Assembly (NCBI GenBank): GCA_965223905.1 | Contig: CBDCXV010000010.1 | Span: forward strand, 1,888,001-1,952,000 | Source: Candidatus Latescibacterota bacterium | GTDB taxonomy: Bacteria; Latescibacterota; UBA2968; UBA8231 | Direction: 5' to 3' | DNA: 64,000 bases | In this document: positions 1 through 63,686 of the stretch, piece by piece | Numbering within the stretch: the first letter of the stretch is position 1 | How the letters are laid out: every line of letters starts with the position of its first letter | Translations under genes and position numbers: made by a program | Notes under the pieces: generated by a model | Database searches by the model: none | The model's input: the letters and a program-made list of their open reading frames with translations, nothing else | What the model was told of the DNA's origin: nothing

Positions 1-1452
1 CACACGCAGGTAGGTCCGTCTCCAGACATCGAACCAGGGATTGAAACACCCGAAGCTGAGGCCGAAACGGCGCGCATGCCGGACCCAGCGGGCCGCTTGG
101 TACATGAGATCGAGAAGGACGCTGCGGAGACGACGACGGCCGGCCTTTTTACGAAAAGCCACGTGCTTTTCGGGGGGCAGATTGCCGGACTCGCGCAGAC
201 CGATTTGGCCGCACAGGCGCAGAGCGTTGTAGGCCATCATGGCCAGCAGCAGCAGGAGCGCGTTGGTGGCGAACTTGCCCGACGGCAGGCGTTCCAGATC
301 CAGGTCCGTTTTCAACTCGGAGTGGAATTGCTCGCAGGTGCTGTGCTCGCGGTAGAGCCGGATCACGTGCGCCGGCGGCGCCATCAGGTTGGTCCACCAG
401 GTCTGCACCTCGATTTCGGGGATCAGCAGCGCCTGACCGTCGACGCTGATCGTGCGCCGCACGACCTCGTAAACGACGCGTTCGAAGGTGTCCTTGCGCT
501 CGCACACCAGCGAGCCGGTGAAGATCTCCTTGCCGGGCCGCGGACAGGTGCGCTCGCCCAGGGCTTCGGCGTCCTCCAGCCAGGTCTGTTTCGATTCGCT
601 GCGCAGGTTGCGTTTGACGATGAAGTCGGTCTTGGGAGTGCGGCGCAACTGCTGTACGGTGGCGATGTCGTCATGGGCGCTGTCCATGCGCACCAGCAGC
701 TTTTCCTTGGTGATGCGGCGCGCCAGCCGCAGCGTCTCTCGAATAAAGTCCGGGGCTCCTTCCTGGGAGTGCTGACTGCCTTCGCGCAGCTGGCAGTTGA
801 GCAGATACCCTTCCTCGCCCAGGTAGGCGAAGATCGGGGCAAAGCCGTCGACCTTCTTGTAGGTCCACGACACCCCTTGTTTTTTGGTGTGGGAGTTGTC
901 GAACACCGACACGTCGATATCCAGCGCGATCCAGGGACCGTAGCGCCCGTCGGCGACTTCGTAACAGGGGGTGAGCGGCGGCGCGTGACGGGCCACCATG
1001 TCGGCCGACTCCTCTCGAATGGCGGTCTCCCCCTGTGCGCCCAAGCCATCGAGCCGCTGCCGCAGCGTGGCCGCCGACGGCACCGCATCCAGGCCCAGGG
1101 CCTGGGCGAAGAAGGGATCGGTGCGAAACGCTTCCACCGCCTCGAAATCCGGCTTGCCCAGCGCCAGCAAGCCGATCATCGACGTCATCACGTCGCCGTG
1201 AGAAACCTCGGGGCAGGGTCGCTCCGGCAAGAGGATTTCATCCACCCGCGCGGCCAAGCGCGTGCGTCCCATCAAGGCCCCGATCAAGGCCAAGCCCGAA
1301 TGCGAGGTCAGCGCTTCTTCGCCCTGCGTAACTTCATACGAAACCAGTCGCAATTCTTCACCTCCAAGGTGAGTGGATATCCTCCTCTAAGATAGCCCAC
1401 ATTCCCCTCGGAAAACCACCGAAAATCAAGCTCTGGACTTCACGGATTCAGG
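1..1452 (-). mobile_element. IS1380-family insertion sequence; transposase CDS from 1353 running off the left window edge
   Basis: Minus frame from TTG 1353 (GGAGG RBS) reads MRLVSYEVTQGEEALTSHSGLALIG...LDIDVSVFDNSHTKKQGVSWTYKKVDGFAP...EQFHSELKTDLDLERLPSGKFATN and stays open to base 1. Terminus TCACGGATTCAGG ends at 1452, inside repeat A. Confidence 0.9.
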
Positions 1453-1712
1453 CTGCAAGACCAAGAGGCATTATCGGACGACTGCACCTGCCGAGACCGC
1501 AGCTGAGAGCAGGAGATCCTCGGTCGAACCGTACGCCGAACACCACACTCGCGACGAGCAGGGCCTTGAAACGAAATCAGCAACAGACCGGCCGATTACG
1601 CAATACGCCGATTACGCAATACAGTGTAACCAATCCTACCCACTGTCGTTTTCAAGCCCGACCTGCCACATACCTCCGTCAGGAAAAAAGGGCCCTTGTA
1701 CGTCCTATACGT
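1453..1712 (+). mobile_element. Non-autonomous IS91/ISCR-like element A, copy 1 (left part cut by IS1380)
   Basis: Near-identical to the corresponding part of 5405-5735 and 7540-7891; ends GAAAAAAGGGCCCTTGTACGTCCTATACGT. Confidence 0.8.
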
Positions 1713-1765
1713 TGGTTGCAGGTCATCGGTGATCCGTCTTCGCCAAGGCTTCGCCGGACAGGTCA

Positions 1766-2185
1766 GTGATCTGGTCAGACGGCACCACCCACCTCCTGCT
1801 CTCACCCGTGGAATTGCTCGAGAAACTGGCCGCCCTCGTACCGCCGCCGCGACTCAACCTGATACGGTACCACGGCGTTCTGGCCCCCAGCGCTCGCGAC
1901 CGCGCCAGTATCGTGCCCGGCCGCGAAAATGACCCTGCATCCGAGTCCGAATCGGCCCACGGGCCCTGTTCGCATCGTCTGTCCTGGTGCCAATTGCTGA
2001 CGCGCGTGTTTTCGATTGACGTTACCGAGTGCCCCGACTGCGGAGGGCACATGAAAATAGTGGCTGCTCTTACCGATCCCGCCTCGATTCGGTCATACCT
2101 CGAGGGGGTGGGCCTGCCTGCAAGGCCTCCGCCCATTGCTCCAGCAAGGCGCGATCAGCAGTCTGAGTTCGAATACGCCGCCTGA
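1766..2185 (+). pseudogene. IS91-family (Y2) transposase, C-terminal fragment
   Basis: WSDGTTHLLLSPVELLEKLAALVPPPRLNLIRYHGVLAP...CPDCGGHMKIVAALTDP...PARPPPIAPAR; N-terminal Zn/HUH region absent. Confidence 0.88.
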
Positions 2186-2396
2186 TAGGAGCGCGCTTGG
2201 ATTGATGCGCCCCAAATGATCATCCAGGTCGCAAAAACGGGAAAAACCGATCTCAGCCCTGGATTCCTCGCCCCCGGCACGCAGCCGATTGTCCCAACCC
2301 CGCATTCCGCCGTTTAAAAAAGATCCCGGAGCCCCTCGACACCACGCCACGCAACGATCTAAACTCACCATAACGCCACTTATCCATCCTATACTC
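2184..2396 (+). mobile_element. IS91-type oriIS end, family B copy 1
   Basis: Directly downstream of the tnp stop; ends CATAACGCCACTTATCCATCCTATACTC; 213 bp matching 4350-4562. Confidence 0.8.
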
Positions 2397-2717
2397 CGGG
2401 CGAAACGACCGCAGAGCAACGGTATCTGCGAGCGATTTCACAAGACCATGCAGGACGAATTCTACTCCATTGCGTTTCGCAAGAAGCTGTACTACACTCT
2501 GGACCAACTGCAGGACGATCTGGATGCGTGGCTCGAGGATTACAACACCGTCCGCACCCATTCCGGAAGGTACTGCTACGGCAAGACGCCGATGCAGACC
2601 ATGCAAGATGCGAAGCATTTGAGCCAGGAAAAGATCCTGGACAACCAGGCAGAGGACACCTTACAACCCGCTGCCGCCTGATGAGCCGATCTGTCAGATC
2701 AAGTTCTGGCTATCACA
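2397..2717 (+). mobile_element. IS481-family remnant (transposase C-terminus, stop 2681, plus right end)
   Basis: PQSNGICERFHKTMQDEFYSIAFRKKLY...YNTVRTHSGRYCYGKTPMQT; end TGTCAGATCAAGTTCTGGCTATCACA; 5' side cut exactly at ori B1. Confidence 0.85.
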
Positions 2718-4354
2718 CGGAAGACGACCGCGCCCCCACGCGCTCCGCTCTCAGGCTGCCCTTCCTCCTGACCCTGTTTCTGATCCTCCTGTCGTTCGAT
2801 GCGGACGTCTACGCGAACATCCGCCTGCGCTGGAGCTTCTGGGGGGTCGCTCTGGCGCTGCTCGCATGGCAGCTGATTCTGTGGTACCGCGCCGCTGCCG
2901 CTGGTCGCTCCATGGAAATCCAGCTCCGCATCACCCGGGCGCATTGGGTCCAGGCCATCGTGCAGCTGTGTATTTACCTGTACTGGGGATGGCATTGGCG
3001 CAACACCTACGATCAGGCGACGCTGATCCTTGCCCAACTGGTGTTCGCTTACGTATTCGATATTCTGCTCGTCTGGTCCAAAAGGAATCACTACTTCCTG
3101 GGTTTCGGGCAGTTTCCCATCGTCTTGAGTACGAACCTGTTCCTGTGGTTCAAGGACGACTGGTTTGTCTGGCAGTTCGCGATGATCGCGGTCGGGCAGA
3201 TGGGCAAGGAGCTCATCAGCTGGAACAAGGAGGGCCGGCGCACCCACATCTTCAACCCCTCCGGCTTTTCACTCACGGTCTTCTCCATCGCCCTGCTGGC
3301 GACGGGCAACACCGGCCTGACCTGGGGTGAAGAGATCGCCAGGACTTTGGTGAGGCCGGAGTTCATCTACGTCGAGATCTTCCTGCTGGGCCTGGTCGTT
3401 CAGTATTTCTTTTCCGTCACCCTGGTCACCCTGTCTGCCGTAGCCGCCCTTTACGTGCTGAACTCCATCTACAGCGGAGTGACCGGCGGCTACTGGTTCA
3501 TAGGTACCAACGTCCCCGTCGCCATCTTCCTCGGTCTTCATCTGCTGGTGACGGATCCTTCGACGTCACCGCGGTCCGGGTGGGGCCGAGTGATGTTCGG
3601 GGCCCTGTACGGAGCCGCCGTCTTGGCCCTGTACGGTCTGCTGGAGTCGCTGCAGATGCCGTCGCATTACGACAAGCTCCTTTGCGTGCCCTTTCTCAAT
3701 CTGTCGATTCAGCTACTCGATCGATGGGGCGGATCGTTCGAGAGGGGGTTTCGACGGTTCACCCGGTTAGACGGCTTTCGCAGCATTCTGCGGACCAATA
3801 TCGCCCACATGAGCATCTGGGTAGCGTTTTTTGCGTTCGTCCATTTGACGGGATTCATCGGCAAGCAGCACGAGGGGAAGAGCACTTCATTCTGGCGTCA
3901 AGCGTGCAAGGATGGAACGCGCAATGGTTGCCGCAATCTGATGACCACGCTCGCGGGTTGGTGCCATCAGGGCAAGGGCGGGGCTTGCAACGAGGTGGCC
4001 GTGAAGTTCGATGAAGGGAAAATCATCGCGAGGTCACCATCAGGTGCGGTAAGGTATTTTCAGAAGGCCTGCGAGCTCGGCCTCCACGTGGGCTGCACGA
4101 ATGCCGTCATCGCCTATCTGTTTCGCCCTGAAGACCAGCTACAAAAAAGGGACGTAGCCGATGCATACAAGAAGATCGAAGAGCTGTGCGACGGGGAAGA
4201 AGACGGGTTGAGTTGCCTTCTCATCGGCTACTCCCACGCGAGTGGGCGCGGCGCCCGGCAAGATGTCACTCGTGCCGTCGAGTACTACGAGCGCGCCTGT
4301 CATCTGGGAACCACCGCTGGCTGCAAGGAGCTGGCCAAGATACTCAATCGATAG
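2718..4354 (+). pseudogene. RnfD/NqrB-like (UnbU-like) membrane protein with C-terminal Cys-rich Sel1-like repeats; start lost to IS481
   Basis: Multiple hydrophobic helices, HIFNPS and TDPSTSP motifs, AVRYFQKACELG/AVEYYERACHLG repeats; the stop TAG lies inside repeat B2. Confidence 0.65.
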
Positions 4355-4562
4355 GAGCGCGCTTGGATTGATGCGCCCCAAATGATCATCCAGGTCGCAA
4401 AAACGGGAAAAACCGATCTCAGCCCTGGATTCCTCGCCCCCGGCACGCAGCCGATTGTCCCAACCCCGCATTCCGCCGTTTAAAAAAGATCCCGGAGCCC
4501 CTCGACACCACGCCACGCAACGATCTAAACTCACCATAACGCCACTTATCCATCCTATACTC
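4350..4562 (+). mobile_element. IS91-type oriIS end, family B copy 2 (no transposase)
   Basis: Direct 213-bp copy of 2184-2396. Confidence 0.85.
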
Positions 4563-5404
4563 TTCAAGCGGAAAGGCACCCCTGACGCTGGAGTCGAGTG
4601 CTACGCTGTCTTGCCGGACAAATCGGAGTGGGGGTGGCAAGCTAAGTTTTTTGATTCCCTCGGCGCATCGCAGTGGTCTCAAATTGATGACTCCGTCAAC
4701 ACCGCCCTGAAAAAGCACCCAAACCTTGTCCGGTACTTCGTATGTGTTCCATACGATCGGCCCGACGCTCGAGTTCAGGGGAAACAGTCCGCGATGGAGC
4801 GGTGGGACGAGCATGTTTCTGAGTGGACGAGATGGGCCAACGAGGGAACGACGGAGGTGGAATTTGTCTATTGGGGTAGCCACGAATTGCTCGATTTGCT
4901 GGTGCAACCGAGGCATGCTGGACGAGTCCGTTTCTGGTTTGAAACGAGCAGCTTCAACGATGCTTGGTTTGATGCCCGAATGGAAGAGGCCAGGAAGACC
5001 GTGGGACCACGTTACACGCCAGAAATACACGTCGACTTGCCTATCGCCGAGGATTTCGACGCGTTCGGCCGGACGGGGCAGTTGTTTGACAGCGTCAAGA
5101 AGCAAGCACGGACGATCCGTAGCGGGCTTCGGACTTTCGGATACCGCGACAACTCTACGTCCGGCGAGACAGCAGATGAAGCTACGGCGTCTCTGATCGC
5201 AAAAGTAAACGTGATTCTCGAAGAGTTGGCTTGCCTCGAGTACCAGCCTGTTGGTCCTCTCCCATTTTCAAGAATCGCAGAGCAAGTCGCCGACGCGGAG
5301 GATGCAGCAGAGGCAGTCGAACAACTGGTGTTTGATCAAGAAACGGCGCATGATGAAGAGGAAACCCCAGCGGGTGACACGTCAGGTAAGTGTCCAACAT
5401 CATC
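4563..5404 (+). pseudogene. Internal N-terminal fragment of a nuclease-STAND ATPase (AVAST/Avs2-like) gene
   Basis: GTPDAGVECY...EWGWQAKFF (PD-(D/E)xK-like) ...EFVYWGSHELLDLL...RFWF...GPRYTPEIHVDLPI; bounded by ori B2 and element A2; no start, no P-loop. Confidence 0.55.
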
Positions 5405-5735
5405 GCTGAGAATCTGCACAGGTGCATACGTCCTTGGCCGCACGCAGGGCACACGCTTGGATCCACGCCCGTCACCTGCAAGACCAAGAGGCATTATCGG
5501 ACGACTGCACCTGCCGAGACCGCAGCTGAGAGCAGGAGATCCTCGGTCGAACCGTACGCCGAACACCACACTCGCGACGAGCAGGGCCTTGAAACGAAAT
5601 CAGCAACAGACCGGCCGATTACGCAATACGCCGATTACGCAATACAGTGTAACCAATCCTACACACTGTCGTTTTCAAGCCCGACCTGCCACATACCTCC
5701 GTCAGGAAAAAAGGGCCCTTGTACGTCCTATACGT
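5405..5735 (+). mobile_element. Element A copy 2
   Basis: Repeat of copies 1 and 3; ends TCCTATACGT; minus strand carries degenerate IS91 tnp tail VTGVDPSVCPACGQGRMH. Confidence 0.85.
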
Positions 5736-5748
5736 TTAGGAGTTTATA

Positions 5749-6360
5749 TTGGAAGATATTCGTATCTACTTTGTCGGTGATTCGTTCATCAATGGCACCG
5801 GTGATCCCCAATATCTCGGCTGGCCAGGTCGCGTCTGCGCAGCATCGAGATCGGCGCAGGTGGGGATTACCTGCTATAACCTCGGCATCCGCGCGGACAC
5901 GAGTGCCGATATTTTGCGCCGCTGGGAGCGCGAGGTGGAAGCCCGGCTTCTGCGTCCCCACGATGCCCGCATCGTGTTCGGCTTTGGTGCCAACGACTGT
6001 TGGATCGAAGAGGGACGCACCCGCGTGACCCGTACGGATTCTGAGACAAATACCTATGACATCCTATCGCGTGCCAGCGCACGTTACCCCACTTTGATGA
6101 TCGGTCCGCCACCGGCACTCGATCCGGATGAAGACGCGCGTCGGCAAGATATGTCATCCCTATTGCAAGATATTGCGACGCGTGCCGGCGTGGCCTATCT
6201 GGAAGTCATTCATGCACTCCGCGAAGGCAGGATTTGGCAAGAGGAACAGGCTTTGGGTGATACCATCCATCCCGCAGCGGGCGGCTATGCGGCCTTGGCG
6301 CAACTGGTGCTCGAATGGCCGCAATGGTGGTTCCATTCGAGTGGTGACAGCACGGCTTAA
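5749..6360 (+). CDS. SGNH/GDSL-family lipase/esterase
   Basis: FVGDSF, NLGIRAD, GANDC, DTIHP blocks; AGGAG RBS, TTG start. Confidence 0.9.
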   Translation: MEDIRIYFVGDSFINGTGDPQYLGWPGRVCAASRSAQVGITCYNLGIRADTSADILRRWEREVEARLLRPHDARIVFGFGANDCWIEEGRTRVTRTDSETNTYDILSRASARYPTLMIGPPPALDPDEDARRQDMSSLLQDIATRAGVAYLEVIHALREGRIWQEEQALGDTIHPAAGGYAALAQLVLEWPQWWFHSSGDSTA

Positions 6361-6380
6361 GCAGATAAGGAGCAGGAGAG

Positions 6381-7133
6381 ATGGACCGTGAAGTATTCCG
6401 TTTTGCCTTTATCACGGATACGCAGATCGGCATGAATAGCCCATTCGGGTTACATGGGCCCGGATCCGATAAGGCGCGCTTGGATGCCGCCATCGCCTAC
6501 ATAAACGCGCAGGCGATCGACTTCGTCATCTTGGGTGGCGATCAGATCCATCAAATCGACGGTCCGGATACCGATGCGCAACTCGACATCCTGGAGACAT
6601 CGTTATCGGCGCTTACGATGCCCTACTATGGGGTTACGGGCAATCATGATCAGGGTGACCCGAGCAAAAGCTGGAAGTATATAGCGCGCGGCTTACCGGT
6701 TCGTTTTTCGTTTGTCCATAAAAACAGCTTCCTGGTAGGTGTCAACGCGGCGTGGCTCAGGGGTGACTTTGGCGATGCCTATCAGCAAGAGGCGTGGCAA
6801 AATCTGGTGAGCGCACTCACCGATAGTCCGGCCACTTGCAAACACCGCTTTGTCGTGATGCACTGGCCGCTTTTCACCGCTTACCCAGAGGAACCGGATG
6901 ATGGTTTTAATATGCCCAATAGGAGCCAGCTGATCGATCTATTGGCGCAACACAGCGTCTCCTGCGTGCTTGCCGGCCATTGGCATCAGGATATCGAGGC
7001 CCGTTGGCGTGGCGTCAGTCTGATCACCAGTGCCGGAACCTCGCGGGCGGTTCAATATCCGGAACAGCGCGCCTTCAAGGTGATCACCGTTTTTGATGAT
7101 GGTTGGTCGGTTCGGCGCGTATCCGTTGAGTAG
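6381..7133 (+). CDS. Calcineurin-like metallophosphoesterase
   Basis: DTQ, GGDQI, GNHD, MHWP, AGHWH motifs. Confidence 0.9.
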   Translation: MDREVFRFAFITDTQIGMNSPFGLHGPGSDKARLDAAIAYINAQAIDFVILGGDQIHQIDGPDTDAQLDILETSLSALTMPYYGVTGNHDQGDPSKSWKYIARGLPVRFSFVHKNSFLVGVNAAWLRGDFGDAYQQEAWQNLVSALTDSPATCKHRFVVMHWPLFTAYPEEPDDGFNMPNRSQLIDLLAQHSVSCVLAGHWHQDIEARWRGVSLITSAGTSRAVQYPEQRAFKVITVFDDGWSVRRVSVE

Positions 7134-7197
7134 TCTGAGAAGCGGTTTCGGACCACAACATAGGTTTTGAAACCACTTCTAATCATCTGAGGTCATT

Positions 7198-7495
7198 ATG
7201 GAACGGCATACCATTCACTATGAGGTGATGAACAGCCAGCAGCAGGCTGAAAGTGGCCGACATTGGGCCATCGATGTGCAGGCGACACCCAAGGAGCTAC
7301 AGACGTTCGCCGAAACGGGTTACCTGATTCGCGAAGGGTTGTTTGCCGGGGCGCTGCTGCAACAGCTGCGTGATGCGCTAGATCGACTGGAGGCGCGCGA
7401 ATCAGAAAAGCGCGATAGCGCCGTGCAAGGCGAGCGATCCTGGGGTTTTATCCCGCGCCATCTGATGGATAAGGACGAAGTATTTCTGGGGCTTC
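7198..7495 (+). pseudogene. Phytanoyl-CoA dioxygenase (PhyH)-family gene, 3'-truncated by element A3
   Basis: ELQTFAETGYLIREGLF...LRDALDRL...RHLMDKDEVFL, then breaks into the repeat. Confidence 0.65.
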
Positions 7496-7891
7496 GAAAC
7501 CCCAGCGGGTGACACGTCAGGTAAGTGTCCAACATCATCGCTGAGAATCTGCACAGGTGCATACGTCCTTGGCCGCACGCAGGGCACACGCTTGGATCCA
7601 CGCCCGTCACCTGCAAGACCAAGAGGCATTATCGGACGACTGCACCTGCCGAGACCGCAGCTGAGAGCAGGAGATCCTCGGTCGAACCGTACGCCGAACA
7701 CCACACTCGCGACGAGCAGGGCCTTGAAACGAAATCAGCAACAGACCGGCCGATTACGCAATACGCCGATTACGCAATACAGTGTAACCAATCCTACCCA
7801 CTGTCGTTTTCAAGCCCGACCTGCCACATACCTCCGTCAGGAAAAAAGGGCCCTTGTACGTCCTAAAAGGGCCCTTGTACGTCCTATACGT
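7496..7891 (+). mobile_element. Element A copy 3 with 44-bp left extension and 21-bp terminal tandem duplication
   Basis: 7496-7539 = 5361-5404; AAAAGGGCCCTTGTACGTCCT twice at 7844-7885; ends TCCTATACGT. Confidence 0.85.
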
Positions 7892-8128
7892 CGACCCGCT
7901 CAAGGGCGACCAGATCGCAAAGCTCGTCACCTGGAAGAGTGATGGGCAGGGTCCGTTTCCCGGAAGGCCAGTGCGGGTGCGGTTTGAGGTCAAAGACGCG
8001 GAGGTGTATTCGTTTCGGTTCAAGAATTGAGCGACGTATTACTACGCTATGCCGAAGACAGCCATTGACACGGCCTGCCGACCGCATAGAATGCACATCG
8101 AACGGCACGCCGTCTCGGTAACGGCGGC
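7892..8128 (+). repeat. 237-bp near-identical copy of 47861-48097 (3' end of propeller GH gene plus intergenic)
   Basis: CGACCCGCTCAAGGGCGACC...GTAACGGCGGC at both sites; starts immediately after ori A3. Confidence 0.92.
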
Positions 8129-8159
8129 CCTACGGGAACCCCGGGAGAAGGAGAGGACC

Positions 8160-9719
8160 ATGGCACACGCAACTCAGGTATGGCCTGTCGGGACACGCAA
8201 ACAGCTTCTGTTTGACCGTCGCTTCGTCGAGTCTTCCGAGGGCCTGCAGTTCACGGTCAATCTCCCCCTTCAGCGTACACCAGTCAATCTGCCGTCCCTC
8301 CGCGGTCTGCAGCACGCCGGCGGTTTGACGGTACTCGACGTCGACGGACGTCTGTGGCTGTACTACCTCATGATGCCGATCGAGATGATGCCGAACGAGG
8401 CGTCTGATCAGCTAAATTGCATGTGCTGCCTGGCGTACTCGGGCGACGGCATCGACTGGGAACTGGCGCAGGTGGACCGGTTCGAGGTGGCGGGATTGGC
8501 TCAGAACAACGTGGTCATGCCCGGTGCGGTCGGCACGCCGTTCCTCGATCCCCGGGAGACATGCGGCTGCCGATTCTGGTTCGCGGGATCGCTGGGCGAG
8601 CGCACCGAGCCGCCCATCTGGGACGAAGCCCGGGAAACGTACTACGGCTATTTCGACGACGGCCGGAAAGTCCACGTCCACGGCGCGGTGTACCTGCTCC
8701 ATTCGGAGGATGGCATATCGTGGCGCCGACTGCGCAGCGGCGTCGTGGTTCCCTTCCGCTGCGACACGCAGAACCAGGTCCTCTACGATGCCGGCGCCGG
8801 CGCCTACGTTGCATATCTGCGCGGCGCGGCGGCCGCGGGTACGTGGGGCCCGGGCTGGGGGAGAAGGCGGACGGTCGCCCGCCTGACTTCGCCCGAGCTC
8901 ACGCAGTTGCCGTTCGACTTCCATGAGGACACGACGCTTCCCAGGAGCCCGGTCGGGCTTTACGACCGGCTGCCGCCGCAGTGCGCGCCGGTGGTCATGG
9001 CGGGTGACGAGCGTGATCCGCCGGCCACGGACGTCTACACGCCCTGCGTCAACCCGTACGTATGGGCGGACGACGCCATCTTTGCCTTCCCATCCATGTT
9101 CCGCCAATACGGCGAGCAGGACAGCCATGGGCGGGACCATCGAGGGCAGAACCCGAAAGACGGCCCAGTGGAGGTGCAGCTCGCCGTGAGCCGCGACGGC
9201 GTCACATTCGAACGGTTCCGCACGCCCTACGTTGGTCTTGGTCTGATAGACGAGTCGCACCTCGGAGGATCAGTCTACATGGGGGTGGGCCTGATCCGGC
9301 GAGGCAACTTCGTCTACCAGTACTACACCGAGGCAGCGACCACCCACGGAACCCCTGACACGGACGTGCGCATCTGGCAGGCCAAACAGCGTCTGGACGG
9401 TTTCGTCTCGGTAGATGCAGGGCCGGAGGACGGTTGGTTTGTGACGCCGCCGATCGAGTTCGCTGGGAGCCGTCTGCAGCTGAACATCGACTGCGGCGCG
9501 ACGGGCGAAGCGTGGGTCGAACTCCAGGACGAAACCGGGAAGCCGTTGCCCGGGTACACGTTCCAGGACGCCGTGTCGGTCGACCGGAACGGTGTCGCAC
9601 AGGAGGTCTGGTGGCGGGGCGGCCCGGACGTCGGCTCACTGAGTGGCCGGCCTGTCCGGATGCGCGTCACGATGCGCTCAGCGAAGCTCTACGCGTTCCA
9701 GTTTGTGGAGGCCGGCTGA
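8160..9719 (+). CDS. Uncharacterised beta-propeller + beta-sandwich glycoside-hydrolase-like protein (GH32/43/130-like fold), paralogue 1
   Basis: RKQLLFD start, SxDGIxW repeats, CDTQNQVLYD, RLDGFVS, AKLYAFQF end; GGAGAGG RBS before ATG 8160. Confidence 0.7.
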   Translation: MAHATQVWPVGTRKQLLFDRRFVESSEGLQFTVNLPLQRTPVNLPSLRGLQHAGGLTVLDVDGRLWLYYLMMPIEMMPNEASDQLNCMCCLAYSGDGIDWELAQVDRFEVAGLAQNNVVMPGAVGTPFLDPRETCGCRFWFAGSLGERTEPPIWDEARETYYGYFDDGRKVHVHGAVYLLHSEDGISWRRLRSGVVVPFRCDTQNQVLYDAGAGAYVAYLRGAAAAGTWGPGWGRRRTVARLTSPELTQLPFDFHEDTTLPRSPVGLYDRLPPQCAPVVMAGDERDPPATDVYTPCVNPYVWADDAIFAFPSMFRQYGEQDSHGRDHRGQNPKDGPVEVQLAVSRDGVTFERFRTPYVGLGLIDESHLGGSVYMGVGLIRRGNFVYQYYTEAATTHGTPDTDVRIWQAKQRLDGFVSVDAGPEDGWFVTPPIEFAGSRLQLNIDCGATGEAWVELQDETGKPLPGYTFQDAVSVDRNGVAQEVWWRGGPDVGSLSGRPVRMRVTMRSAKLYAFQFVEAG

Positions 9720-9927
9720 AGGGGGCGCGCCGAGCGGCGATCGAGGGCGCACCCGCTATCTTCGATCCATCAGGCGACCACGCCGGACGACCCTGAACAT
9801 CGGTGTCAAACCCATCGGCACTCGGGTGGCGGGTCAGATTCGTTGCGTCCTCCTTGTGGAATCATAGGCGATGTAATGAAGCGATTTCTGCCTATCGGAG
9901 GATTTGCGTCGCGTCAGTTTGGCAAAA

Positions 9928-12997: not shown

Positions 12998-13752
12998 CTT
13001 GCGATTGGTTGGAGTGATTCTTAAGTGGTTTTTTTCGGAGGCTTTGGAGGAAAAGTTCGTTTTTCGATGCGGAGAGCTGCTCTTCGGCATTATTCGAAGT
13101 ACGGATGTGTGCCACTGGGCGCAGTTCACCGCCTCAACCTACCAAATCGAACCCCGTTTGCGGCTGTGGGTGGGCCGGCCCGATTGGGGGTGCGCGGGAA
13201 GGCAGGTCCATTGAATCCAGGCAGCTGATGATCGAACGCCGGTCCGTCAGCGCGGCGCTCTCCCGGATTTGGACTCGGGATCCTCCAGCGCCTGCAGCAG
13301 TGCCGGCAGTGCATCGCGCTTGGCGATCAACAACTCCTGCTTGGCCGAAGTCTCCAGTTAGGTGTTTGCGAGTGTAGTGATCGAGTGTTATTCGTGAAGA
13401 AAGGACCTGTCGCAATCGGTCGGCAAGAGAGAAGGGAGCTACGATCTTCCATCATCTGACAACGATCAGAAACAGCCGTCAGGCTTGCTGTCGCCGTCAG
13501 GACAATGGGCTGACGTCGTAGCGGTCCTACTCGGCCGCCGCCTTCTCCCTCCACTGCTCCCGGTACTCAGCCACGAAACGCTCGAAGAAGGCTCTGGTAT
13601 TACTCGCGAGACCATCGAGATAACCCGGGGTGTCGAACCAGGGCTGGTTCGAGAAGTAATCGAACCGAGGCATTGAGGCCTTGGTGTAGGTGAATAGGAG
13701 AGTGCGGCGCAGCTTGTCCGTGTGATAGCGCCCCCTGTGGAACCGCCTGACC

Positions 13753-16275
13753 TCAGCGCTCAGCCAGCTTCATCAACGCCGCCAACACTCGAATCCGCGC
13801 GCCGTCGGCCAACGTGCGATCCATTGTCTCGTCCAGCCACCACGTCGTCTCGGAGAACGCGGCCTCGCAGACACTCGCCGGCACGCTCTCCAGCAGCTGA
13901 CGCGCCTCCGCCACGTCCGGACCCGTCGCCCCCTGCGCAGACGCCTCCCGGATCGCCCGATCCAACATCACGAAATACTCGTAGTCCTCCACCCCTTCGC
14001 GCTGCGCCTCCAGGTGTTTGCCAGCCGTCACCGAGTCCTCGGCGATAAACAAAGGCGTGTACGCCGTCCCCTTGGCCAGATACTCGTTCCACGATGAGGC
14101 GCCGGCCGCGTCGGTCAGCGACCAGAAATACATCCCCGTGGCCCCATAGCGCCAACACCACCACGCCGTCAGCCGGTAGTAGGCGTACGGATCCAGAAGC
14201 CGCGCCGGGCCATCAGCATTGTAGAACTCCAGCTCGATCCCCTGATCGCGCTTCTTCAGGTAATACTCGCGAAACTCCTGGGCCGCGTCAGGAGACCGGA
14301 TAGGTGTAGAAGCATTCAGGAAGATCTTGAGGTGCGGGCACAACACATGGCACGCATCTATCATCGCCTCCGTCGCCTGGCTCATGTCCCGGTAGGTCGG
14401 ATCCTCCCAGATGCGGACCCCCGTATCCGCCTCCCGGATAGCCTTAGCCCACGCCAGAATGACCTGGTCAGCCTGCCGCACCTCGTTCGGCTCATCCACC
14501 AGCAGCAGCGCCAACTGTTCCGGCTTCAACCCCTTCTCCACTGCATGCCCCGCCCAGAACGTCACCCACGCCTTCACCGCCGTCGCGAATTCCGGTGTGT
14601 CCATGGCCCATGAGTACTTTTCGTCGCCCGCATACGTGAATCGATCGCCCACTCTCACGAACACGAGGTATTGGGCTGCACCCGGCCACAACTCGAGCCA
14701 CGCATCGAACTTGGCTGTGTTGGGTGGCGCCGTCATCGCTCCCTGCGCATCATACGTGCCCTGTACATCCGGGTAGCTCGGATTCAGCAGCCGGGGCGAG
14801 CCCCACGGCGAGTCCACGAAACGTTCGCGCAGGTGCTGAACGATCAGCGATTGGTTCTGCTCCGTCACCAACTTGGTCTTACTGATGGTCTCATGCGTAT
14901 AGTCCCATCCGCCCAGGTGAAGCGACTGCTTCTCCGGGAAATCCAGGGGATACAGGTGCATGCGCAACGGAAACCGCTTGCCCCCGGCCGCAGACTCCAC
15001 GAGGACCTCGCCCTCATACGTACCCGGCTCCACCTCCACCGGATGGAACGTCAGCCACACCTGCCGCGTCATCCCCGAGGGCACGGTCACCGTATACAGA
15101 TTGTCCTCAGCAGAAACCTGCGGCAGCGCCGCCGCCACCGGCACGCCAGATCTGGTATCCGTCCAGCCTACTTCGTGAACCGTTACATATTCCGGATTGT
15201 CGCCCCCGGGAAGCCCCCTCAACCGGAACCTCACCTGCGCCGACTCATCACTGCTGTTGCTCACGTTGAACGCTGCCGCGCGATATTCCTTCCGCATCAG
15301 GTGGACCTCGACGGACAGTTCCGGCGCCGTGTCCGGCATGCCGATGAGCGGAAGCGGATCCCACAGATCCGAACGCCAGAACGTGAGCGGCTCTAAACCC
15401 CTGGCGCGCCACAGCCACGCCTGCGTACGCAACACCCGTTCATGCCACGAATTCAGCGGCAGTACGGCCCGAAAATCTTCCCCGTACGCCCTGCACGCCT
15501 GCCCCAACTCCCCTTCCACGGCCGTCAACTCGTCGTGCACATCTTGCTGTGTCTGGACCGGGACCCCCTCCTCCTCCGTCGCCTTCTTCAGGGCTTGGAT
15601 GTCCTGCACAAACCGCCTCCGAATCGCCACCTGAATGGCGAGCTGGCCCGAATGCGCCTCCACGTCCGTAAAACCCGGGCCCGGCAGCGGCTCATTCACC
15701 CACTCCGGCTCTCCCGCGTAGACCTCGATTTCGTCGACGAACGCGTACCGCCCCACGGGCCACACAACCAGGCTGACATAGCGGCCGTGAGTCCTCAACT
15801 GGTCCGTCCAGTACCGATGCGTCCCATCCGTCCCATACTCCGTCGGTAAGGGGGGGCCGTGTGCGGCGCTCAACCCCACCAGCTCCCCGATCTCATGGAA
15901 TTTCTTGTCTTCACCCGCCGTGAAGACGAAGATCGCCTCCGGCCATTTCACGCTCGAAGCGCCGGCCGCCGTATGGAACGAAATACCCCGTATCGGCCTC
16001 ACCGTACCCAGGTCCAGCGTCAGGATAACGGGCTTCACTCTGACCCAGCCCACTGTCGACAGCTGTGTCCAAAGACTTTCCGCCGTTTGATCGTACACGC
16101 CATCCGTCAGTTGCGTGACATCAGCGGCGTCCGTGCAATGCTCATAATTCGGCGCCGGCTCCATCGTGTAGCTCGCCCCAAAGGCAATGTTCTCGCTCGG
16201 ACGATCCACCGCCGTGTCCTGCGCCCACGCCAGTCCCACTATCAACAACCCTATTGCTGCCAATGTCCGTTTCAT
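13753..16275 (-). CDS. Secreted GH123-like (DUF4091 C-terminus) glycoside hydrolase with N-terminal discoidin-like domain, paralogue P1
   Basis: Signal peptide AWA-Q; LTDG...LDLG...VDEIEVY domain; VDEP acidic pair; EAQREGVEDYEY. Confidence 0.65.
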   Translation of the reverse strand: MKRTLAAIGLLIVGLAWAQDTAVDRPSENIAFGASYTMEPAPNYEHCTDAADVTQLTDGVYDQTAESLWTQLSTVGWVRVKPVILTLDLGTVRPIRGISFHTAAGASSVKWPEAIFVFTAGEDKKFHEIGELVGLSAAHGPPLPTEYGTDGTHRYWTDQLRTHGRYVSLVVWPVGRYAFVDEIEVYAGEPEWVNEPLPGPGFTDVEAHSGQLAIQVAIRRRFVQDIQALKKATEEEGVPVQTQQDVHDELTAVEGELGQACRAYGEDFRAVLPLNSWHERVLRTQAWLWRARGLEPLTFWRSDLWDPLPLIGMPDTAPELSVEVHLMRKEYRAAAFNVSNSSDESAQVRFRLRGLPGGDNPEYVTVHEVGWTDTRSGVPVAAALPQVSAEDNLYTVTVPSGMTRQVWLTFHPVEVEPGTYEGEVLVESAAGGKRFPLRMHLYPLDFPEKQSLHLGGWDYTHETISKTKLVTEQNQSLIVQHLRERFVDSPWGSPRLLNPSYPDVQGTYDAQGAMTAPPNTAKFDAWLELWPGAAQYLVFVRVGDRFTYAGDEKYSWAMDTPEFATAVKAWVTFWAGHAVEKGLKPEQLALLLVDEPNEVRQADQVILAWAKAIREADTGVRIWEDPTYRDMSQATEAMIDACHVLCPHLKIFLNASTPIRSPDAAQEFREYYLKKRDQGIELEFYNADGPARLLDPYAYYRLTAWWCWRYGATGMYFWSLTDAAGASSWNEYLAKGTAYTPLFIAEDSVTAGKHLEAQREGVEDYEYFVMLDRAIREASAQGATGPDVAEARQLLESVPASVCEAAFSETTWWLDETMDRTLADGARIRVLAALMKLAER

Positions 16276-16500
16276 CGCCTGTCTCTCACAGTCTGATTCT
16301 AGTGCCGTGTCCCGGAAGTATCAGCGCCGATCCATCCAGACTCGCGGCGTTGCTCTCACTTGCGATATGCTCCGCTACCCGTACCACAGTAACAAGATCC
16401 CGTAACCTGAGGAGAGCGCTTGCGTGAGGTAGAGGATTTCCAAATGCCAGCACCATCGGATTAGCGTTGAGAGAGGACGCCTGGAGGTCGGCGCCAGACC

Positions 16501-19116: not shown

Positions 19117-19350
19117 GGCTTGTCCTTGCTATCTGATGAGCGCTTCTTCCTCGTACTCTCAAACTGCAAAAAGGCGGGCTGCAACGCGAACGATGGGTGG
19201 CCGCGTCATGCGCCCTCTCACTGGTTCTGGCTCGCTTTTGACGATGGCGATCGGTATCATCCTGCAGATCGACACCGGCCCCAATCATCAAAAACAGAGG
19301 TCGCCGGGCGAGAACCGATCATGACCTCTCGCGAACAAGGAGAAGACCGA

Positions 19351-20361: not shown

Positions 20362-20440
20362 GGTCGCACTCTAACGGAGACTCAGGCCAGTCGGCAGCCA
20401 TCGCGGTGACGCGTCCACACACCAGTCGCGGTCGACGGAA

Positions 20441-21250: not shown

Positions 21251-21464
21251 TCTTCGAGCTCCGGCCGGATAGATGATCTCCAGTTCGAGTCACGTTCTCT
21301 GGATAGCCTACGGTACGCCCCTCCCGATGGGCAAGACCACAGCAGGCGACCGAATCGTCGATGATAGTCATTGACCCGGCCTGCCGAACGCCTACGATAC
21401 ACATCGAACGGCACGCCGTGCGGTGGCGGCGGCCCTACGAGAACCCCGGGAGAAGGAGAGGACC

Positions 21465-22991: not shown

Positions 22992-23091
22992 TGCCCTTCC
23001 GTACCTGCGCCGGTCACAAGGCGCCCCCTGGCCTTCTCGGGAGAATGAGAATCTCGAGAAGGAGGGATTCATCAGATATGAGGGACAGGCG

Positions 23092-25770: not shown

Positions 25771-25939
25771 GGTCAGGCGGTTCGCCAGGGTGCGCGGTGC
25801 CCGACTGGACAAGACCGCTGATTTGGTCGCCCGGGGCGGGCCACCGATGGTTACAAACCTACCGTCAATTGTCGCTCCGTGACCCGCCAACCGCATCACT
25901 CGACGTGGTTCGACCGCTGAGGCTCGTGTTCGAGTGGGC

Positions 25940-25979
25940 TTGACAGTGTAACCCTGCTTCGTATATCCTAAGTATATAC
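25940..25979 (+). promoter_or_regulatory. Sigma70-like promoter with overlapping palindromic operator for mazEF
   Basis: TTGACA 25940-45, TATCCT 25964-69; inverted repeat GTATAT-N7-ATATAC 25961-79. Confidence 0.6.
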
Positions 25980-25996
25980 ATTCAAGGAGAGCCGAC

Positions 25997-26581: not shown

Positions 26582-26768
26582 AAAGCGCCGCGAAGCCGAT
26601 CGCGACTCGTGGTGATGTGCGGCGAACTGGCTCATCTGCTCATCCGTCAGAATGCGTGATGGTGCACCCTGTTTCATGTAATGCTCCATTTACGCCTGGC
26701 GCGCGCTGATTTGGAGATCCCATGCCCGCCGGTAGTACTTCAGCGGGCCTGAGCTCTGAGGTCAGGCG

Positions 26769-27012: not shown

Positions 27013-27062
27013 GTCACACCGAAACCTCGCTCAGAAGTCCCCCGACAGCGTCACCGAATCCG

Positions 27063-27403
27063 CGTACAAGGGCCCTTTTTTCCTGACGGAGGTATGTGGC
27101 AGGTCGGGCTTGAAAACGACAGTGGGTAGGATTGGTTACACTGTATCGCGTAATCGGCCGGTCTGTTGCTGATTTCGTTTCAAGGCCCTGCTCGTCGCGA
27201 GTGTGGTGTTCGGCGTACGGTTCGACCGAGGATCTCCTGCTCTCAGCTGCGGTCTCGGCAGGTACAGTCGTCCGATAATGCCTCTTGGTCTTGCAGGTGA
27301 CGGGCGTGGATCCAGGCGTGTGCCCTGCGTGCGGCCAAGGACGTATGCACACTGTGCAGATTCTCAGCCCATCGGAACAGCGCGCACCACCTGAATGGCG
27401 TCA
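27063..27403 (-). mobile_element. Element A copy 4 (subtype 2), ori tip clipped by 10 bp
   Basis: Reverse complement of A lacking TCCTATACGT; single GCCGATTACGCgATAC unit; tnp tail continues MHTVQILSPSEQRAPP. Confidence 0.85.
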
Positions 27404-27479
27404 ATCGGCATGAGCACGCAGAATTCAATGGAACATCTCCACGCGACGGACAGACCGTGCCTTCTTGCCTCTACACGGA

Positions 27480-27676
27480 GCGGTGTCGCTTTCAAAGACG
27501 AATCCCACGGCGAGATCACCTCGTGGTCATGGGACTTCGGCGACGAAACGACTTCGAACGAACAGCACCCGATACATCAGTACAGCGAAGCAGGAGAGTT
27601 TGTGGTGACCTTGCATGTCGAAGGTCCGAAGGGAAAGGCGCGTCGCGTCAAGGTGTATGAAGTGATGGTGAAGTGA
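27480..27676 (+). pseudogene. C-terminal PKD-domain fragment
   Basis: [33 protein letters not shown]...[10 protein letters not shown]; left boundary approximate. Confidence 0.75.
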
Positions 27677-27873
27677 TGCCGGCGAACCGGGAGTGCGTGC
27701 TGACGACGTCCAGACCACCTCGTTGCCACTACGGCAGCCTCGAGCAGACGATTCACGCCATCCGCGCCCACCGGCCGTTCGACCTAAATGCCGAGCGCTG
27801 GCGGGAGGCGCACCCAGGGGCCGACTTCGAGACGTGGCGCCGCCAGGCCCATGCATGTCTGCACGAGGGCCTC
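27676..27873 (+). pseudogene. N-terminal fragment of a probable alpha/beta hydrolase
   Basis: Start overlaps the PKD stop; ...ADFETWRRQAHACLHEGL, then breaks into an ori-like sequence. Confidence 0.4.
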
Positions 27874-27964
27874 GGCCCCTCAGACCAGCCTCAAATTTCT
27901 GACTCGACAGCATCTCCCAGCCGACATACACTACCCATAACGGCCGTCTATAATTCCTATACGT
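27874..27964 (+). mobile_element. IS91-type oriIS-like end, family C
   Basis: CATAACGGCCGTCTATAATTCCTATACGT resembles ends B and D; left boundary approximate. Confidence 0.6.
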
Positions 27965-45865: not shown

Positions 45866-46444
45866 GAAAAGCTGGCTGCCCTCGTACCCCCGCCACGGCT
45901 CAACCTGATTCGGTATCACGGCCTCCTGGCGCCCAACGCGCGAGACCGTGACCGCATCGTGCCGGGCGCCGACGACGAGCCCGAGGCGACTGGCGTATCC
46001 GCCCTACCACCGTGTCCTCACCGCCTGTCCTGGTGCCAGCTGTTGGCGCGCGTGTTCTCGATCGACATCAGCGAATGCCCCGCCTGCGGCGGCCGGATGA
46101 GGATCGTCGCCGCCCTGACCGAGCCGGCCTCGATCCGGTCCTATCTCGAAGGCGTCGGCCTGCCGGCGCGGCCGCCTCCGATCGCGCCGGCACGACCCGA
46201 GCTCGATTTCGCCGCCTGAGCGGACGCGCCTGGCGTGATCCGAACGGATCGATGCGCCCGGAAGGCCCGTTTTCAGGCTGGAAACGGGCTCGCAAGCGTC
46301 CATCGACCGGCTCGCAGGCCCTGATCCACCCCCAATCCACACGCCCATCGCGACCTGCACCCATCCCGCCGCTCACCACCCCTCTCGACACGATTCCGCC
46401 GCCGACCTAGACTAATCATAATTGCGGTTATCGGTCCTATACAT
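45866..46444 (+). mobile_element. IS91-family remnant D: tnp C-terminus (stop 46219) plus oriIS end
   Basis: EKLAALVPPPRLNLIRYHG...CPACGGRM; paralogue of 1766-2185; ends CATAATTGCGGTTATCGGTCCTATACAT. Confidence 0.85.
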
Positions 46445-63359: not shown

Positions 63360-63686
63360 TTTTTCCTGACGGAGGTATGTGGCAGGTCGGGCTTGAAAAC
63401 GACAGTGGGTAGGATTGGTTACACTGTATCGCGTAATCGGCCGGTCTGTTGCTGATTTCGTTTCAAGGCCCTGCTCGTCGCGAGTGTGGTGTTCGGCGTA
63501 CGGTTCGACCGAGGATCTCCTGCTCTCAGCTGCGGTCTCGGCAGGTACAGTCGTCCGATAATGCCTCTTGGTCTTGCAGGTGACGGGCGTGGATCCAAGC
63601 GTGTGCCCTGCGTGCGGCCAAGGACGTATGCACACTGTGCAGATTCTCAGCCCATCGGAACAGCGCGCACCACCTGAATGGCGTCA
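63360..63686 (-). mobile_element. Element A copy 5 (subtype 2), ori tip lost
   Basis: Near-identical to copy 4, sharing the end CACCACCTGAATGGCGTCA. Confidence 0.85.

What the first reader, a model, noticed from the sequence alone, without database searches (positions are those of the whole stretch)
1453..7891. Head-to-tail array of IS91/ISCR oriIS ends, each joined to different passenger DNA: candidate bacterial Helitron-like gene-capture system
Seen: five co-oriented termini ending TCCTATAC+2 nt (1712, 2396, 4562, 5735, 7891) within about 6.4 kb. The DNA after each is unrelated: IS91 tail; IS481 tail plus membrane gene; STAND fragment; lipase operon; duplicated GH locus. At 2396, 4562 and 7891 it starts mid-gene exactly at the terminus. 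Known: IS91/ISCR elements move by HUH rolling-circle transposition from oriIS, make no target duplication, and mobilise flanking DNA by one-ended transposition. Inference: transposase-less ori modules mobilised in trans have built a cassette-like array of captured fragments, as eukaryotic Helitrons do, here with metabolic rather than resistance cargo.
Basis: partly seen in the sequence, partly recalled or inferred. Interest (0 to 1): 0.85.

Follow-up and report, generated by a model that had tools for sequence, protein, structure and literature searches.

The report
Stacked IS91-type transposon end remnants
Five transposase-less right ends of IS91/ISCR-type rolling-circle insertion sequences sit head-to-tail between gene fragments in a marine bacterium, which is a real and unusually dense example of a known kind of element rather than a shown new gene-capture system.

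Summary
TCCTATAC plus 2 nt ends at 1712, 2396, 4562, 5735 and 7891, all on the + strand. The window has 7 such sites against 0.46 expected.

They are not five independent ends. They are copies of two repeat families: A (three copies, 260-396 nt) and B (two copies, 213 nt, 100% identical).

The motif matches published ISCR oriIS sequences. In B, C and the genome's main IS91 family it lies 213-225 nt after a Y2 transposase stop. None of the five has a transposase or a left (terIS) end.

Both flanks of nearly every module are unrelated and mostly mid-gene:
- IS481 integrase tail
- a Sel1 membrane gene lacking about 70 C-terminal residues
- Avs2 residues 37 to about 305
- PhyH residues 1-99
- a glycosidase-like paralogue tail

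Only the lipase and phosphoesterase ORFs are whole. The passengers are single-copy, low in GC and not found in three relatives. Short-read unitigs from three studies run into every internal junction.

My reading: non-autonomous IS91 ori-end derivatives inserted repeatedly into an acquired island, then recombination between co-oriented copies compacted it. Stacking by integration at resident tips remains possible. This is a new member of a known kind.

The parts
1..1452 (-). Right part of a 1672-bp DDE IS (DDE_Tnp_1_4) inserted into module A1. It extends left of the window to C10:1887781 and is flanked by a 3-bp CTG duplication.
   Evidence: Pfam. Five copies are 100% identical over these 1452 nt (this one included). 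The A1 halves are at C10:1887655-1887780 and window 1453-1712.
1453..1712 (+). A1: 3' part of a family-A ori module, ending TCCTATACGT.
1713..2396 (+). B1: last 684 nt of an IS91-family element. It holds the transposase tail (1766-2185, Y2_Tnp profile positions 143-178 of 183) plus a 213-nt ori end ending TCCTATACTC.
2397..2689 (+). Tail of an IS481-like integrase gene (rve_3 from profile position 11 of 67). It starts mid-domain exactly at the B1 tip.
   Evidence: Single copy in the genome.
2690..4351 (+). Membrane/Sel1-repeat gene. Its alignment to a 653-aa homologue stops at residue 580, so about 70 C-terminal residues are missing. The stop codon is supplied by module B2.
4350..4562 (+). B2: 213-nt family-B ori module, 100% identical to 2184-2396. 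Its 5' edge lies just after where the B transposase stop would be.
4563..5360 (+). Internal fragment of an Avs2 (AVAST type 2) defence gene, residues 37 to about 305 of about 1558.
   Evidence: Single copy.
5361..5735 (+). A2: 375-nt mini-element made of 45 nt of unrelated DNA plus the A core (5406-5735).
   Evidence: The same left edge is found in A3.
5736..7197 (+). GDSL lipase (5749-6360) and metallophosphoesterase (6381-7133). Both ORFs are whole, and the A2 tip lies 2 nt before the lipase AGGAG.
   Evidence: Single copy.
7198..7495 (+). N-terminal 99 residues of a roughly 278-aa phytanoyl-CoA dioxygenase family gene, cut by A3.
   Evidence: 59 homologues, most of them 277-283 aa; the best is 71% identical and named Candidatus Poribacteria by its source.
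7496..7891 (+). A3: the same 45 nt plus the A core, with a 21-nt tandem duplication (7844-7864 and 7865-7885) next to the tip.
7892..9719 (+). Partial paralogue of 47861-49559: the last 108 nt of one gene plus the following gene (8160-9719). It begins exactly at the A3 tip.
   Evidence: No second copy of the 5' part exists. The same junction occurs in genome G016.
27063..27484 (-). A4: inverted family-A copy with the longest 5' extension, lacking the last 11 nt of the tip.
63360..63686 (-). A5: inverted family-A copy lacking about 23 nt of the tip.
27872..27964 (+). D: another ori end (ending TCCTATACGT), related to B and C, downstream of a PKD-domain gene fragment.
45866..46444 (+). C: 5'-truncated IS91-family element with a transposase tail (45866-46219) and a 225-nt ori end. 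A DDE IS fragment lies on its left and an intact gene on its right.

Best explanation
The five termini are right (oriIS) ends of IS91/ISCR-family rolling-circle insertion sequences. They belong to two previously unseen sequence families (A and B), and all are non-autonomous.

How I think the structure arose:
1. An HUH Y2 transposase supplied in trans nicks at the tip. Short ori-end derivatives then insert with a precise tip junction and no target duplication. These derivatives are the 213-nt B module, the roughly 330-420-nt A module, and a 375-nt chimera of 45 foreign nt plus the A core.
2. Such modules inserted repeatedly, in one orientation, into a horizontally acquired low-GC island. That island carried an IS481, a Sel1 membrane gene, an Avs2 defence gene, a lipase-phosphoesterase-PhyH operon and a glycosidase-like paralogue.
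3. Homologous recombination between co-oriented copies of the same family then deleted the DNA between them. Each surviving module keeps the left flank of one insertion and the tip junction of another.

The result is a compact head-to-tail pile of ori ends and gene fragments.

Shown: the identity of the ends, their non-autonomy, the precise tip junctions, the fragmentary passengers, the recurrence of the 375-nt chimera in two genes, and recombination among A copies.

Inferred: the order of events and the deletions.
For: Identity of the ends:
- CCTATAC is invariant in an alignment of six ori ends.
- It matches the published ISCR27 oriIS, which lies 236 bp after the transposase stop, and the ISCR1 right end.
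- B, C and the main family have it 213, 225 and 218 nt after a Y2 transposase stop.
- 24 IS91-like tips were found genome-wide.

Non-autonomy:
- Only a 139-aa transposase tail lies in the array.
- Families A and B occur nowhere else in the genome.
- Of the five longest IS91 copies I translated, one has an intact Zn_Tnp_IS91 + Y2_Tnp ORF, at C11:524221-525660.

Mini-element mobility:
- The same left edge of the 45-nt-plus-A unit lies in Avs2 (about residue 305) and in PhyH (residue 99).
- Two main-family fragments share one 5' edge in different flanks.
- IS801 right-end fragments of 229, 360 and 679 nt transpose in vivo (PMC3189936).

Recombination and decay:
- Of 48 main-family copies, 30 lack both ends.
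- A4 and A5 lack their tips.
- The A copy at the A4 locus in G016 is 99% identical to A2/A3, whereas that locus as a whole is 96.9% identical to the G000 A4 locus.
- A tip-to-tip segment is circularly permuted in G002.
- Synteny with G016 breaks at A modules.

Foreign island:
- GC is 54-61% against 64% for the genome.
- The passengers are single-copy and were not found in G001, G002 or G016.

Reality of the junctions: unitigs at 100% identity in 3 runs from 3 studies.
Against: - The model needs about nine module insertions and four deletions in one small region.
- It needs two independent hits in one Avs2 gene, at codons 37 and 305.
- No intermediate state was found. I saw no simple insertion with both halves of a gene, and no empty site. 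For the G016:C1 A copy, no genome among the 31 searched had both flanks together.
- The interleaving of families (A, B, B, A, A) and the precise tip at all five junctions fit transposase-made stacking equally well.
- A 1354-nt pair, 100% identical, consists of a 765-nt gene fragment plus a 589-nt module. One copy starts mid-gene. This looks like a unit copied with its upstream passenger.
- The 5' edges of 15 truncated copies share no ter-like tetranucleotide.
Confidence: 0.45

Rival explanations
1. Transposase-made stacking. Each unit is upstream passenger DNA plus its ori module, released by one-ended rolling-circle transposition that started at the tip and stopped at a random point upstream. 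Each unit then integrated exactly at the tip/flank junction of a resident ori end. That junction is the transposase's own nick site, so units accreted head-to-tail.
For: - All five tips are intact to the nucleotide and abut unrelated DNA.
- Two module families are interleaved, which recombination alone cannot join.
- One-ended transposition occurs in 1-14% of events for IS91 and IS1294 and in 26% of events for IS801.
- A 100%-identical 1354-nt pair consists of a gene fragment plus a module. One copy is in its native gene context and the other starts mid-gene, and the flanks after the two tips differ.
- G016 has the A tip|paralogue-tail junction without units 2-5 beside it.
- The passengers are foreign and single-copy.
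Against: - Integration at a resident ori tip is not documented in the papers I read.
- No donor locus exists in the genome.
- No tip is directly followed by a true left end at any of the 5 copies that keep one.
- The tip junction of the copied 1354-nt unit is shared with G002, where a longer IS91 fragment sits. This also fits copying by recombination repair.
- The G016 A copy is itself truncated and joined to the middle of another gene, so it says little about the ancestral state.
- I do not know whether any transposase recognises both A and B ends.
Confidence: 0.3
2. Assembly or amplification chimera: the junctions do not exist in the cell.
For: The repeats are 213-396 nt long and nearly identical, which can mislead assemblers. 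In the listed pieces (table 8 was cut) no short-read piece spans a whole module.
Against: - Unitigs 1684-2213, 2367-4379, 4533-5390 and 5707-7525 appear at 100% identity in runs X19 and X20. They appear with slightly shorter ends in X23. The three runs come from three studies.
- Each unitig runs 25-30 nt into the repeat on both sides. This is just under the tool's 31-nt bridging rule, as expected from 31-mer unitigs.
- The assembly has contigs of 2 Mb.
- G016, a separate genome, carries the A tip|paralogue-tail junction.
- A seawater metagenome holds 2554-4345 and 4316-4379.
Confidence: 0.03
3. The TCCTATAC ends are sites of some other system (integron attC-like, Xer/dif-like, or an unrelated MITE), and the likeness to IS91 is chance, at least for family A.
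For: - Family A never has a transposase next to it in G000 or in the three G016 copies.
- Folding of the ends is no better than shuffled sequence.
Against: - By my own reading of the two sequences, about 24 of the last 33 nt of A match the main-family end, including the A-run, GG, GCC and CCTATAC.
- The modules are interleaved with B ends that follow a Y2 transposase tail.
- No integrase family hit appeared among the nine ORFs scanned in 1-9716 other than the IS481 tail.
- There was no Rfam match.
Confidence: 0.04

Closest known systems
IS801 right-end 'miniature' fragments and one-ended transposition in Pseudomonas syringae (PMC3189936; passages read)
   Same: - Pieces with no transposase gene that keep an intact right (ori) end and have variable or recurrent left ends.
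- Adjacent upstream DNA can be carried along.
- Fragments are often found next to accessory genes.
- The authors also weighed transposition against reorganisation.
   Different: - The ends belong to different sequence families, and the host is a marine/sponge-associated bacterium of 64% GC.
- The left edges here show no ter-like tetranucleotide.
- Five ends are stacked within 6.4 kb with no intact gene context on either side.
ISCR elements (ISCR1, ISCR2/ISVsa3, ISCR27)
   Same: - The terminal oriIS motif ...TTCCTATAC(C) lies roughly 200-240 bp after a Y2 transposase stop.
- They are associated with foreign DNA.
- The genome's intact transposase is about 41% identical over 93% of its length to annotated IS91-family / ISVsa3 transposases.
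   Different: - No resistance genes and no class 1 integron context.
- The modules are much shorter than an ISCR and lack the gene.
- The one ISVsa3 copy I inspected (L037) had no exact CCTATAC, so the comparison with ISCR ends rests on sequences printed in two papers.
IS91 itself: oriIS/terIS, one-ended transposition, target 5'-CTTG/GTTC (PMC13181058); IS91-mediated capture of catabolic genes with a circular form (PMC5737581)
   Same: - Functionally distinct ends, with the ori end essential.
- No target duplication.
- Mobilisation of DNA beyond terIS.
- Non-resistance cargo is already reported.
   Different: - No terIS and no orf121 here.
- The bases after CCTATAC are family-specific: TT in 14 of 17 main-type tips, GT in A and D, TC in B. 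A clear CTTG/GTTC is not seen.
Eukaryotic Helitrons (PMC4778049; search listing only)
   Same: Rolling-circle HUH transposition, and capture of gene fragments on the terminator side.
   Different: The bacterial transposase has no helicase domain. Pfam finds only Zn_Tnp_IS91 and Y2_Tnp. This is an analogy, not membership.

Membership tests
IS91/ISCR family (element ends) | Conserved right-end oriIS motif ...T(T)CCTATAC(C) | tested here: met
   Present at all 5 ends plus C and D. Invariant in the alignment of six ends. Identical core to the ISCR27 and ISCR1 oriIS sequences printed in PMC8894482 and PMC13023784.
IS91/ISCR family (element ends) | oriIS lies about 170-240 bp downstream of a Y2 HUH transposase gene | tested here: met
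   Met for B1 (213 nt), C (225 nt) and the main family (218 nt). A1-A3, B2 and D have no transposase sequence upstream, so they are derivatives and not whole members.
IS91/ISCR family (autonomous element) | Encodes a Zn_Tnp_IS91 + Y2_Tnp transposase | tested here: not met
   Only a 139-aa C-terminal tail lies in the array. One intact 480-aa ORF exists elsewhere, at C11, but that element lacks the last 16 nt of its tip.
IS91/ISCR family (element ends) | Left terIS end | tested here: not met
   None of the five modules reaches a left end. Genome-wide, 5 of 48 main-family copies keep one.
IS91/ISCR family (element ends) | Target tetranucleotide 5'-CTTG/GTTC next to oriIS, and no target duplication | tested here: inconclusive
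   After CCTATAC the sequences are GTTG, GTTT and GTCG (A), GTTC (D), TCCG and TCTT (B), and TT in 14 of 17 main-type tips. Duplication cannot be judged because the two flanks are unrelated.
IS91/ISCR family (element ends) | Subterminal palindromes at oriIS | tested here: inconclusive
   Small hairpins are predicted, but the z-scores of -0.5 to +1.1 are no better than shuffles.
IS801-type one-ended miniature fragments | Intact right end plus a left end at a ter-like tetranucleotide; the same fragment recurs in different sites | tested here: inconclusive
   Right end intact: yes. Recurrence: the 45-nt-plus-A unit occurs twice, and one main-family edge occurs twice. A ter-like tetranucleotide: no consensus at the 15 edges examined.
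Helitron | Rep-helicase (RepHel) protein | tested here: not met
   Pfam finds only Zn_Tnp_IS91 and Y2_Tnp in the intact transposase.
Integron | IntI integrase plus attC-bounded cassettes | tested here: not met
   No integrase other than the IS481 rve_3 tail appeared among the nine ORFs scanned. I ran no dedicated attC search.

The most novel reading that the evidence does not exclude
IS91-type ori tips act both as start sites and as acceptor or terminator sites for the HUH transposase. Any segment lying between two co-oriented tips would then be a cassette that can be excised as a circle and re-integrated next to another tip. A single transposase supplied in trans would in this way build integron-like arrays of gene fragments and operons. 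This would be a bacterial counterpart of Helitron fragment capture, and it would operate lineage-wide, since co-oriented tips lie 3-6 kb apart in G000 and numerous IS91 3'-end matches occur in relatives G002 and G016.
Probability: 0.2. Interest if true: 0.7.

Novelty: new member of a known kind. Interest (0 to 1): 0.4.

Why it matters
IS91/ISCR elements are mostly studied as carriers of resistance genes in clinical Proteobacteria. In this genome, ori-end remnants of related families mark synteny breakpoints, pieces of a defence gene and an imported operon in a large environmental genome. One of their junctions is shared at about 99% identity with a genome from another genus.

If the junctions at the tips are made by the transposase rather than by later recombination, ori ends would be a general device for stitching foreign DNA together. 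The locus offers a clean test of this, because unit 4563-5735 is bounded by two different module families.

If they are not, the locus is still a well-resolved natural example of how IS91 fragments seed recombination and gene decay.

Tried and rejected
What led nowhere or was inconclusive:
- **Autonomous A element.** I looked for a full-length A element and found none in G000. In the relatives search, 4 of 41 genomes including G000 matched A, and the three full-length G016 matches have no transposase beside them. A also had no match in PLSDB plasmids. Exact-pattern scans of genome contigs and metagenome contigs gave 0 hits each. The tool warns that near relatives may be left out of those scans.
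- **Parents of the passengers.** None were found at DNA level in G000 or in G001, G002 and G016. The closest proteins in the large database are only 60-71% identical.
- **Empty sites.** For the G016:C1 A copy, no genome among the 31 searched had both flanks together. The G002 comparisons of two other arrays showed many indels and one circular permutation but no clean empty site.
- **Ter-like signal at 5' edges.** None was found.
- **Replichore bias.** On C10, the 10 IS91-like tips below 1.37 Mb are on the - strand and the 12 above 1.46 Mb are on the + strand. GC skew is too weak to place an origin or terminus.
- **Mid-gene starts after other tips.** I tested only the 5 of 17 main-type tips whose downstream flank had an open frame of at least 173 codons at the junction. 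One gave a possibly truncated PDDEXK_4 domain, one gave a weak fn3 hit below the cut-off, and three gave nothing. This is inconclusive.
- **Hairpins at the ends.** They are not significant.
- **Rfam.** No match in 1-9000.
- **Circle junctions.** None appear among the loose ends listed. Contigs drop rare forms and the table was cut.
- **A3 tip|7892 junction.** It was not among the short-read pieces listed. Its support is the G016 genome.

- Supplementary files of papers were not opened. The IS91 target-site tables in the supplements of PMC13181058 might bear on the tetranucleotide question.

Full report
**Observation**

The octamer TCCTATAC occurs seven times in the 64-kb window, always on the + strand. 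The expected number is 0.46, and no shuffle among 100 reached seven.

They are not five independent sequences:
- Family A has three direct copies: 1453-1712, 5361-5735 and 7496-7891.
- Family B has two copies that are 100% identical: 2184-2396 and 4350-4562.
- A1 is the right half of a copy split by a 1672-bp DDE insertion sequence with a CTG duplication. Its left half lies just outside the window.
- Two more A copies, at 27063-27484 and 63360-63686, are inverted and have lost 11 and about 23 nt of the tip.
- Single ends of two further families, C and D, lie at 46444 and 27964.

**What the ends are**

The motif is the known right-end origin of IS91/ISCR elements:
- The ISCR27 oriIS is printed as ending ...TTCCTATACC and lies 236 bp after the transposase stop (PMC8894482, passage read).
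- The ISCR1 right end is printed as ...TTCCTATACCC (PMC13023784, passage read).

In this window, B1 follows a Y2_Tnp transposase tail by 213 nt and C by 225 nt. In the genome's main IS91 family the distance is 218 nt.

An alignment of six ends keeps CCTATAC invariant. A motif-with-context scan flagged 27 sites out of 205 CCTATAC occurrences. I accept 24 of them as IS91-type tips: 17 main-type, three A, two B, one C and one D.

Family A never has transposase sequence beside it. Its last 33 nt resemble the main-family end by my own reading. It has no Rfam match.

**Autonomy**

- The array holds only a 139-aa transposase tail.
- Families A and B occur nowhere else in the 7.9-Mb genome.
- Pfam Y2_Tnp gives 25 matches in the genome, most of them C-terminal pieces.
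- Of the five longest copies I translated, one has an intact 480-aa ORF with Zn_Tnp_IS91 and Y2_Tnp. Its element lacks the last 16 nt of the tip.
- That protein is about 41% identical to annotated IS91-family / ISVsa3 transposases on plasmids.

**The flanks**

Nearly every module joins unrelated DNA, mostly in mid-gene:
- After A1 comes the interior of the B transposase gene.
- After B1 comes an IS481-type integrase from rve_3 profile position 11 of 67.
- Before B2 lies a Sel1 membrane gene whose alignment to a 653-aa homologue stops at residue 580.
- After B2 come residues 37 to about 305 of a roughly 1558-aa Avs2 defence protein.
- Before A3 lie the first 99 residues of a roughly 278-aa PhyH-family protein.
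- After A3, homology to an intact paralogue begins exactly at 7892. No second copy of that gene's 5' part exists.
- Only the GDSL lipase and metallophosphoesterase ORFs are whole. The A2 tip sits 2 nt before the lipase ribosome-binding site.

The passenger DNA has 54-61% GC against 64% for the genome. It is single-copy. It was not found in three relatives at DNA level.

**Reality of the junctions**

- Six runs, labelled as three organisms and coming from three studies, hold 96-98% of the sampled words.
- In the three runs that I laid, unitigs at 100% identity cover 1684-2213, 2367-4379, 4533-5390 and 5707-7525. In X23 the ends are slightly shorter and the first interval is in two pieces.
- Each unitig reaches 25-30 nt into the flanking repeat. 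This is what 31-mer unitigs give, but it is below the tool's 31-nt rule for bridging.
- The best holders may include the source of the assembly.
- A separate genome, G016, has the A tip|paralogue-tail junction at 98.8% identity over 2126 nt.

I regard an artefact as very unlikely.

**Genome-wide pattern**

Of 48 main-family copies, 2 keep both ends, 13 keep only the tip, 3 keep only the left end and 30 keep neither (13 against 3 gives binomial p = 0.02). Tips are therefore retained preferentially, but general decay dominates.

The 5' edges of 15 truncated copies show no shared tetranucleotide.

Tips cluster in co-oriented arrays 3-6 kb apart. Relatives G002 and G016 also carry many IS91 3'-end matches.

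**Evidence bearing on mechanism**

- The 375-nt unit (45 unrelated nt plus the A core) has the same left edge in Avs2 and in PhyH, so it moved as a defined mini-element.
- Elsewhere, a 1354-nt pair at 100% identity consists of 765 nt of a gene plus a 589-nt module. One copy continues the gene upstream, and the other starts mid-gene. The flanks after the tips differ. This looks like one-ended transposition carrying upstream DNA.
- However, the tip junction of the new copy is shared with G002, where a longer IS91 fragment sits. Recombination repair is therefore an alternative.
- G002 also has a circular permutation of a G000 tip-to-tip segment. Recombination or rolling-circle excision could each make this.
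- The A copy at the A4 locus in G016 is of the A2/A3 subtype, which shows conversion among copies.
- Tracts of 99-100% identity between G000 and G016 end at A modules, while the neighbouring DNA is 84-92% identical.

**Literature**

- IS91-family elements have distinct oriIS and terIS ends, make no target duplication and use a tetranucleotide next to oriIS. They fail to terminate in 1-14% of events and then carry adjacent DNA (PMC13181058, passages read).
- IS801 right-end fragments of 229, 360 and 679 nt transposed in vivo, and IS801 carried adjacent DNA in 0.7% of insertions. The authors nevertheless judged most genomic fragments to be reorganisations (PMC3189936, abstract and passages read).
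- IS91-mediated capture of catabolic genes, with a circular form, is reported (PMC5737581, passages read).
- The Helitron comparison rests on a search listing only.

**Verdict**

The ends are genuine, non-autonomous IS91/ISCR-type ori ends of new sequence families.

I favour repeated insertion of mini-modules into an acquired island followed by recombination between co-oriented copies (0.45). Transposase-made stacking of passenger-plus-ori units at resident tips comes second (0.30). The data do not separate the two.

Either way the class of element and its behaviour are known. The density of the array and the tidy test case it offers are what is worth noting.

Noticed in passing
G000 contig C10, whole length: IS91-type tips are on the - strand below 1.37 Mb (10 of the 10 that I accept as IS91 tips; one further unverified motif site at 435809 is also on -) and on the + strand above 1.46 Mb (12 of 12). 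This suggests an orientation bias tied to replication direction. GC skew is too weak to place an origin or terminus.
   Followed up: partly
G000 C11:524101-525873 (locus L034): Of the five longest IS91 copies I translated, the only one with an intact transposase ORF (480 aa) sits in an element that has lost the last 16 nt of its ori tip. It may therefore be a stranded source of transposase acting in trans.
   Followed up: partly
window 13358-27484 and 7616-9741, against G016:C2 (locus L009): Tracts of 99-100% identity with a genome labelled as another genus, while adjacent DNA is 84-92% identical. This points to recent exchange. The tract edges coincide with family-A modules.
   Followed up: partly
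window 1-1452 and C10:1887781-1888000: A 1672-bp DDE_Tnp_1_4 insertion sequence. Five copies, this one included, are 100% identical over the 1452 nt tested, so it is probably active. It split module A1 with a CTG duplication.
   Followed up: partly
window 7844-7885: A 21-nt tandem duplication immediately before the A3 tip, absent from the other A copies.
   Followed up: no
window 4563-5360: Remnant of an Avs2 (AVAST type 2) anti-phage gene, residues 37 to about 305 only. No intact copy was found at DNA level in the genome.
   Followed up: partly
G000 C10:371064-372417 and 374212-375565: Two 1354-nt copies, 100% identical, each made of a glyoxalase-like gene fragment plus a 589-nt IS91 ori module. 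They lie 3.1 kb apart with different DNA after each tip.
   Followed up: partly
G002:C1:6010992-6016516 (locus L036), against G000 C10:364897-371652: G002 carries a circular permutation of a G000 segment bounded by two IS91 tips. This is the arrangement expected from a circle junction or a tandem duplication.
   Followed up: partly
window 8150-9664, 21455-22936, 48122-49559, and inverted repeats 13728-19044 against 23191-25795: Three or more paralogous copies of a 519-aa gene with no Pfam family, and large diverged inverted gene duplications (76-89% identity). The region is a paralogue-rich locus.
   Followed up: no
window 56412-57588: A periodic 51-57-nt repeat family on the coding strand of a long gene (8 copies, 150-330 nt apart), consistent with a repeat-domain protein.
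   Followed up: no
G016:C1:739244-741649 (locus L010): The DNA starting about 90 nt after this A tip is 93% identical to a genome of a different family (G035). This is another case of foreign DNA next to an A end.
   Followed up: no
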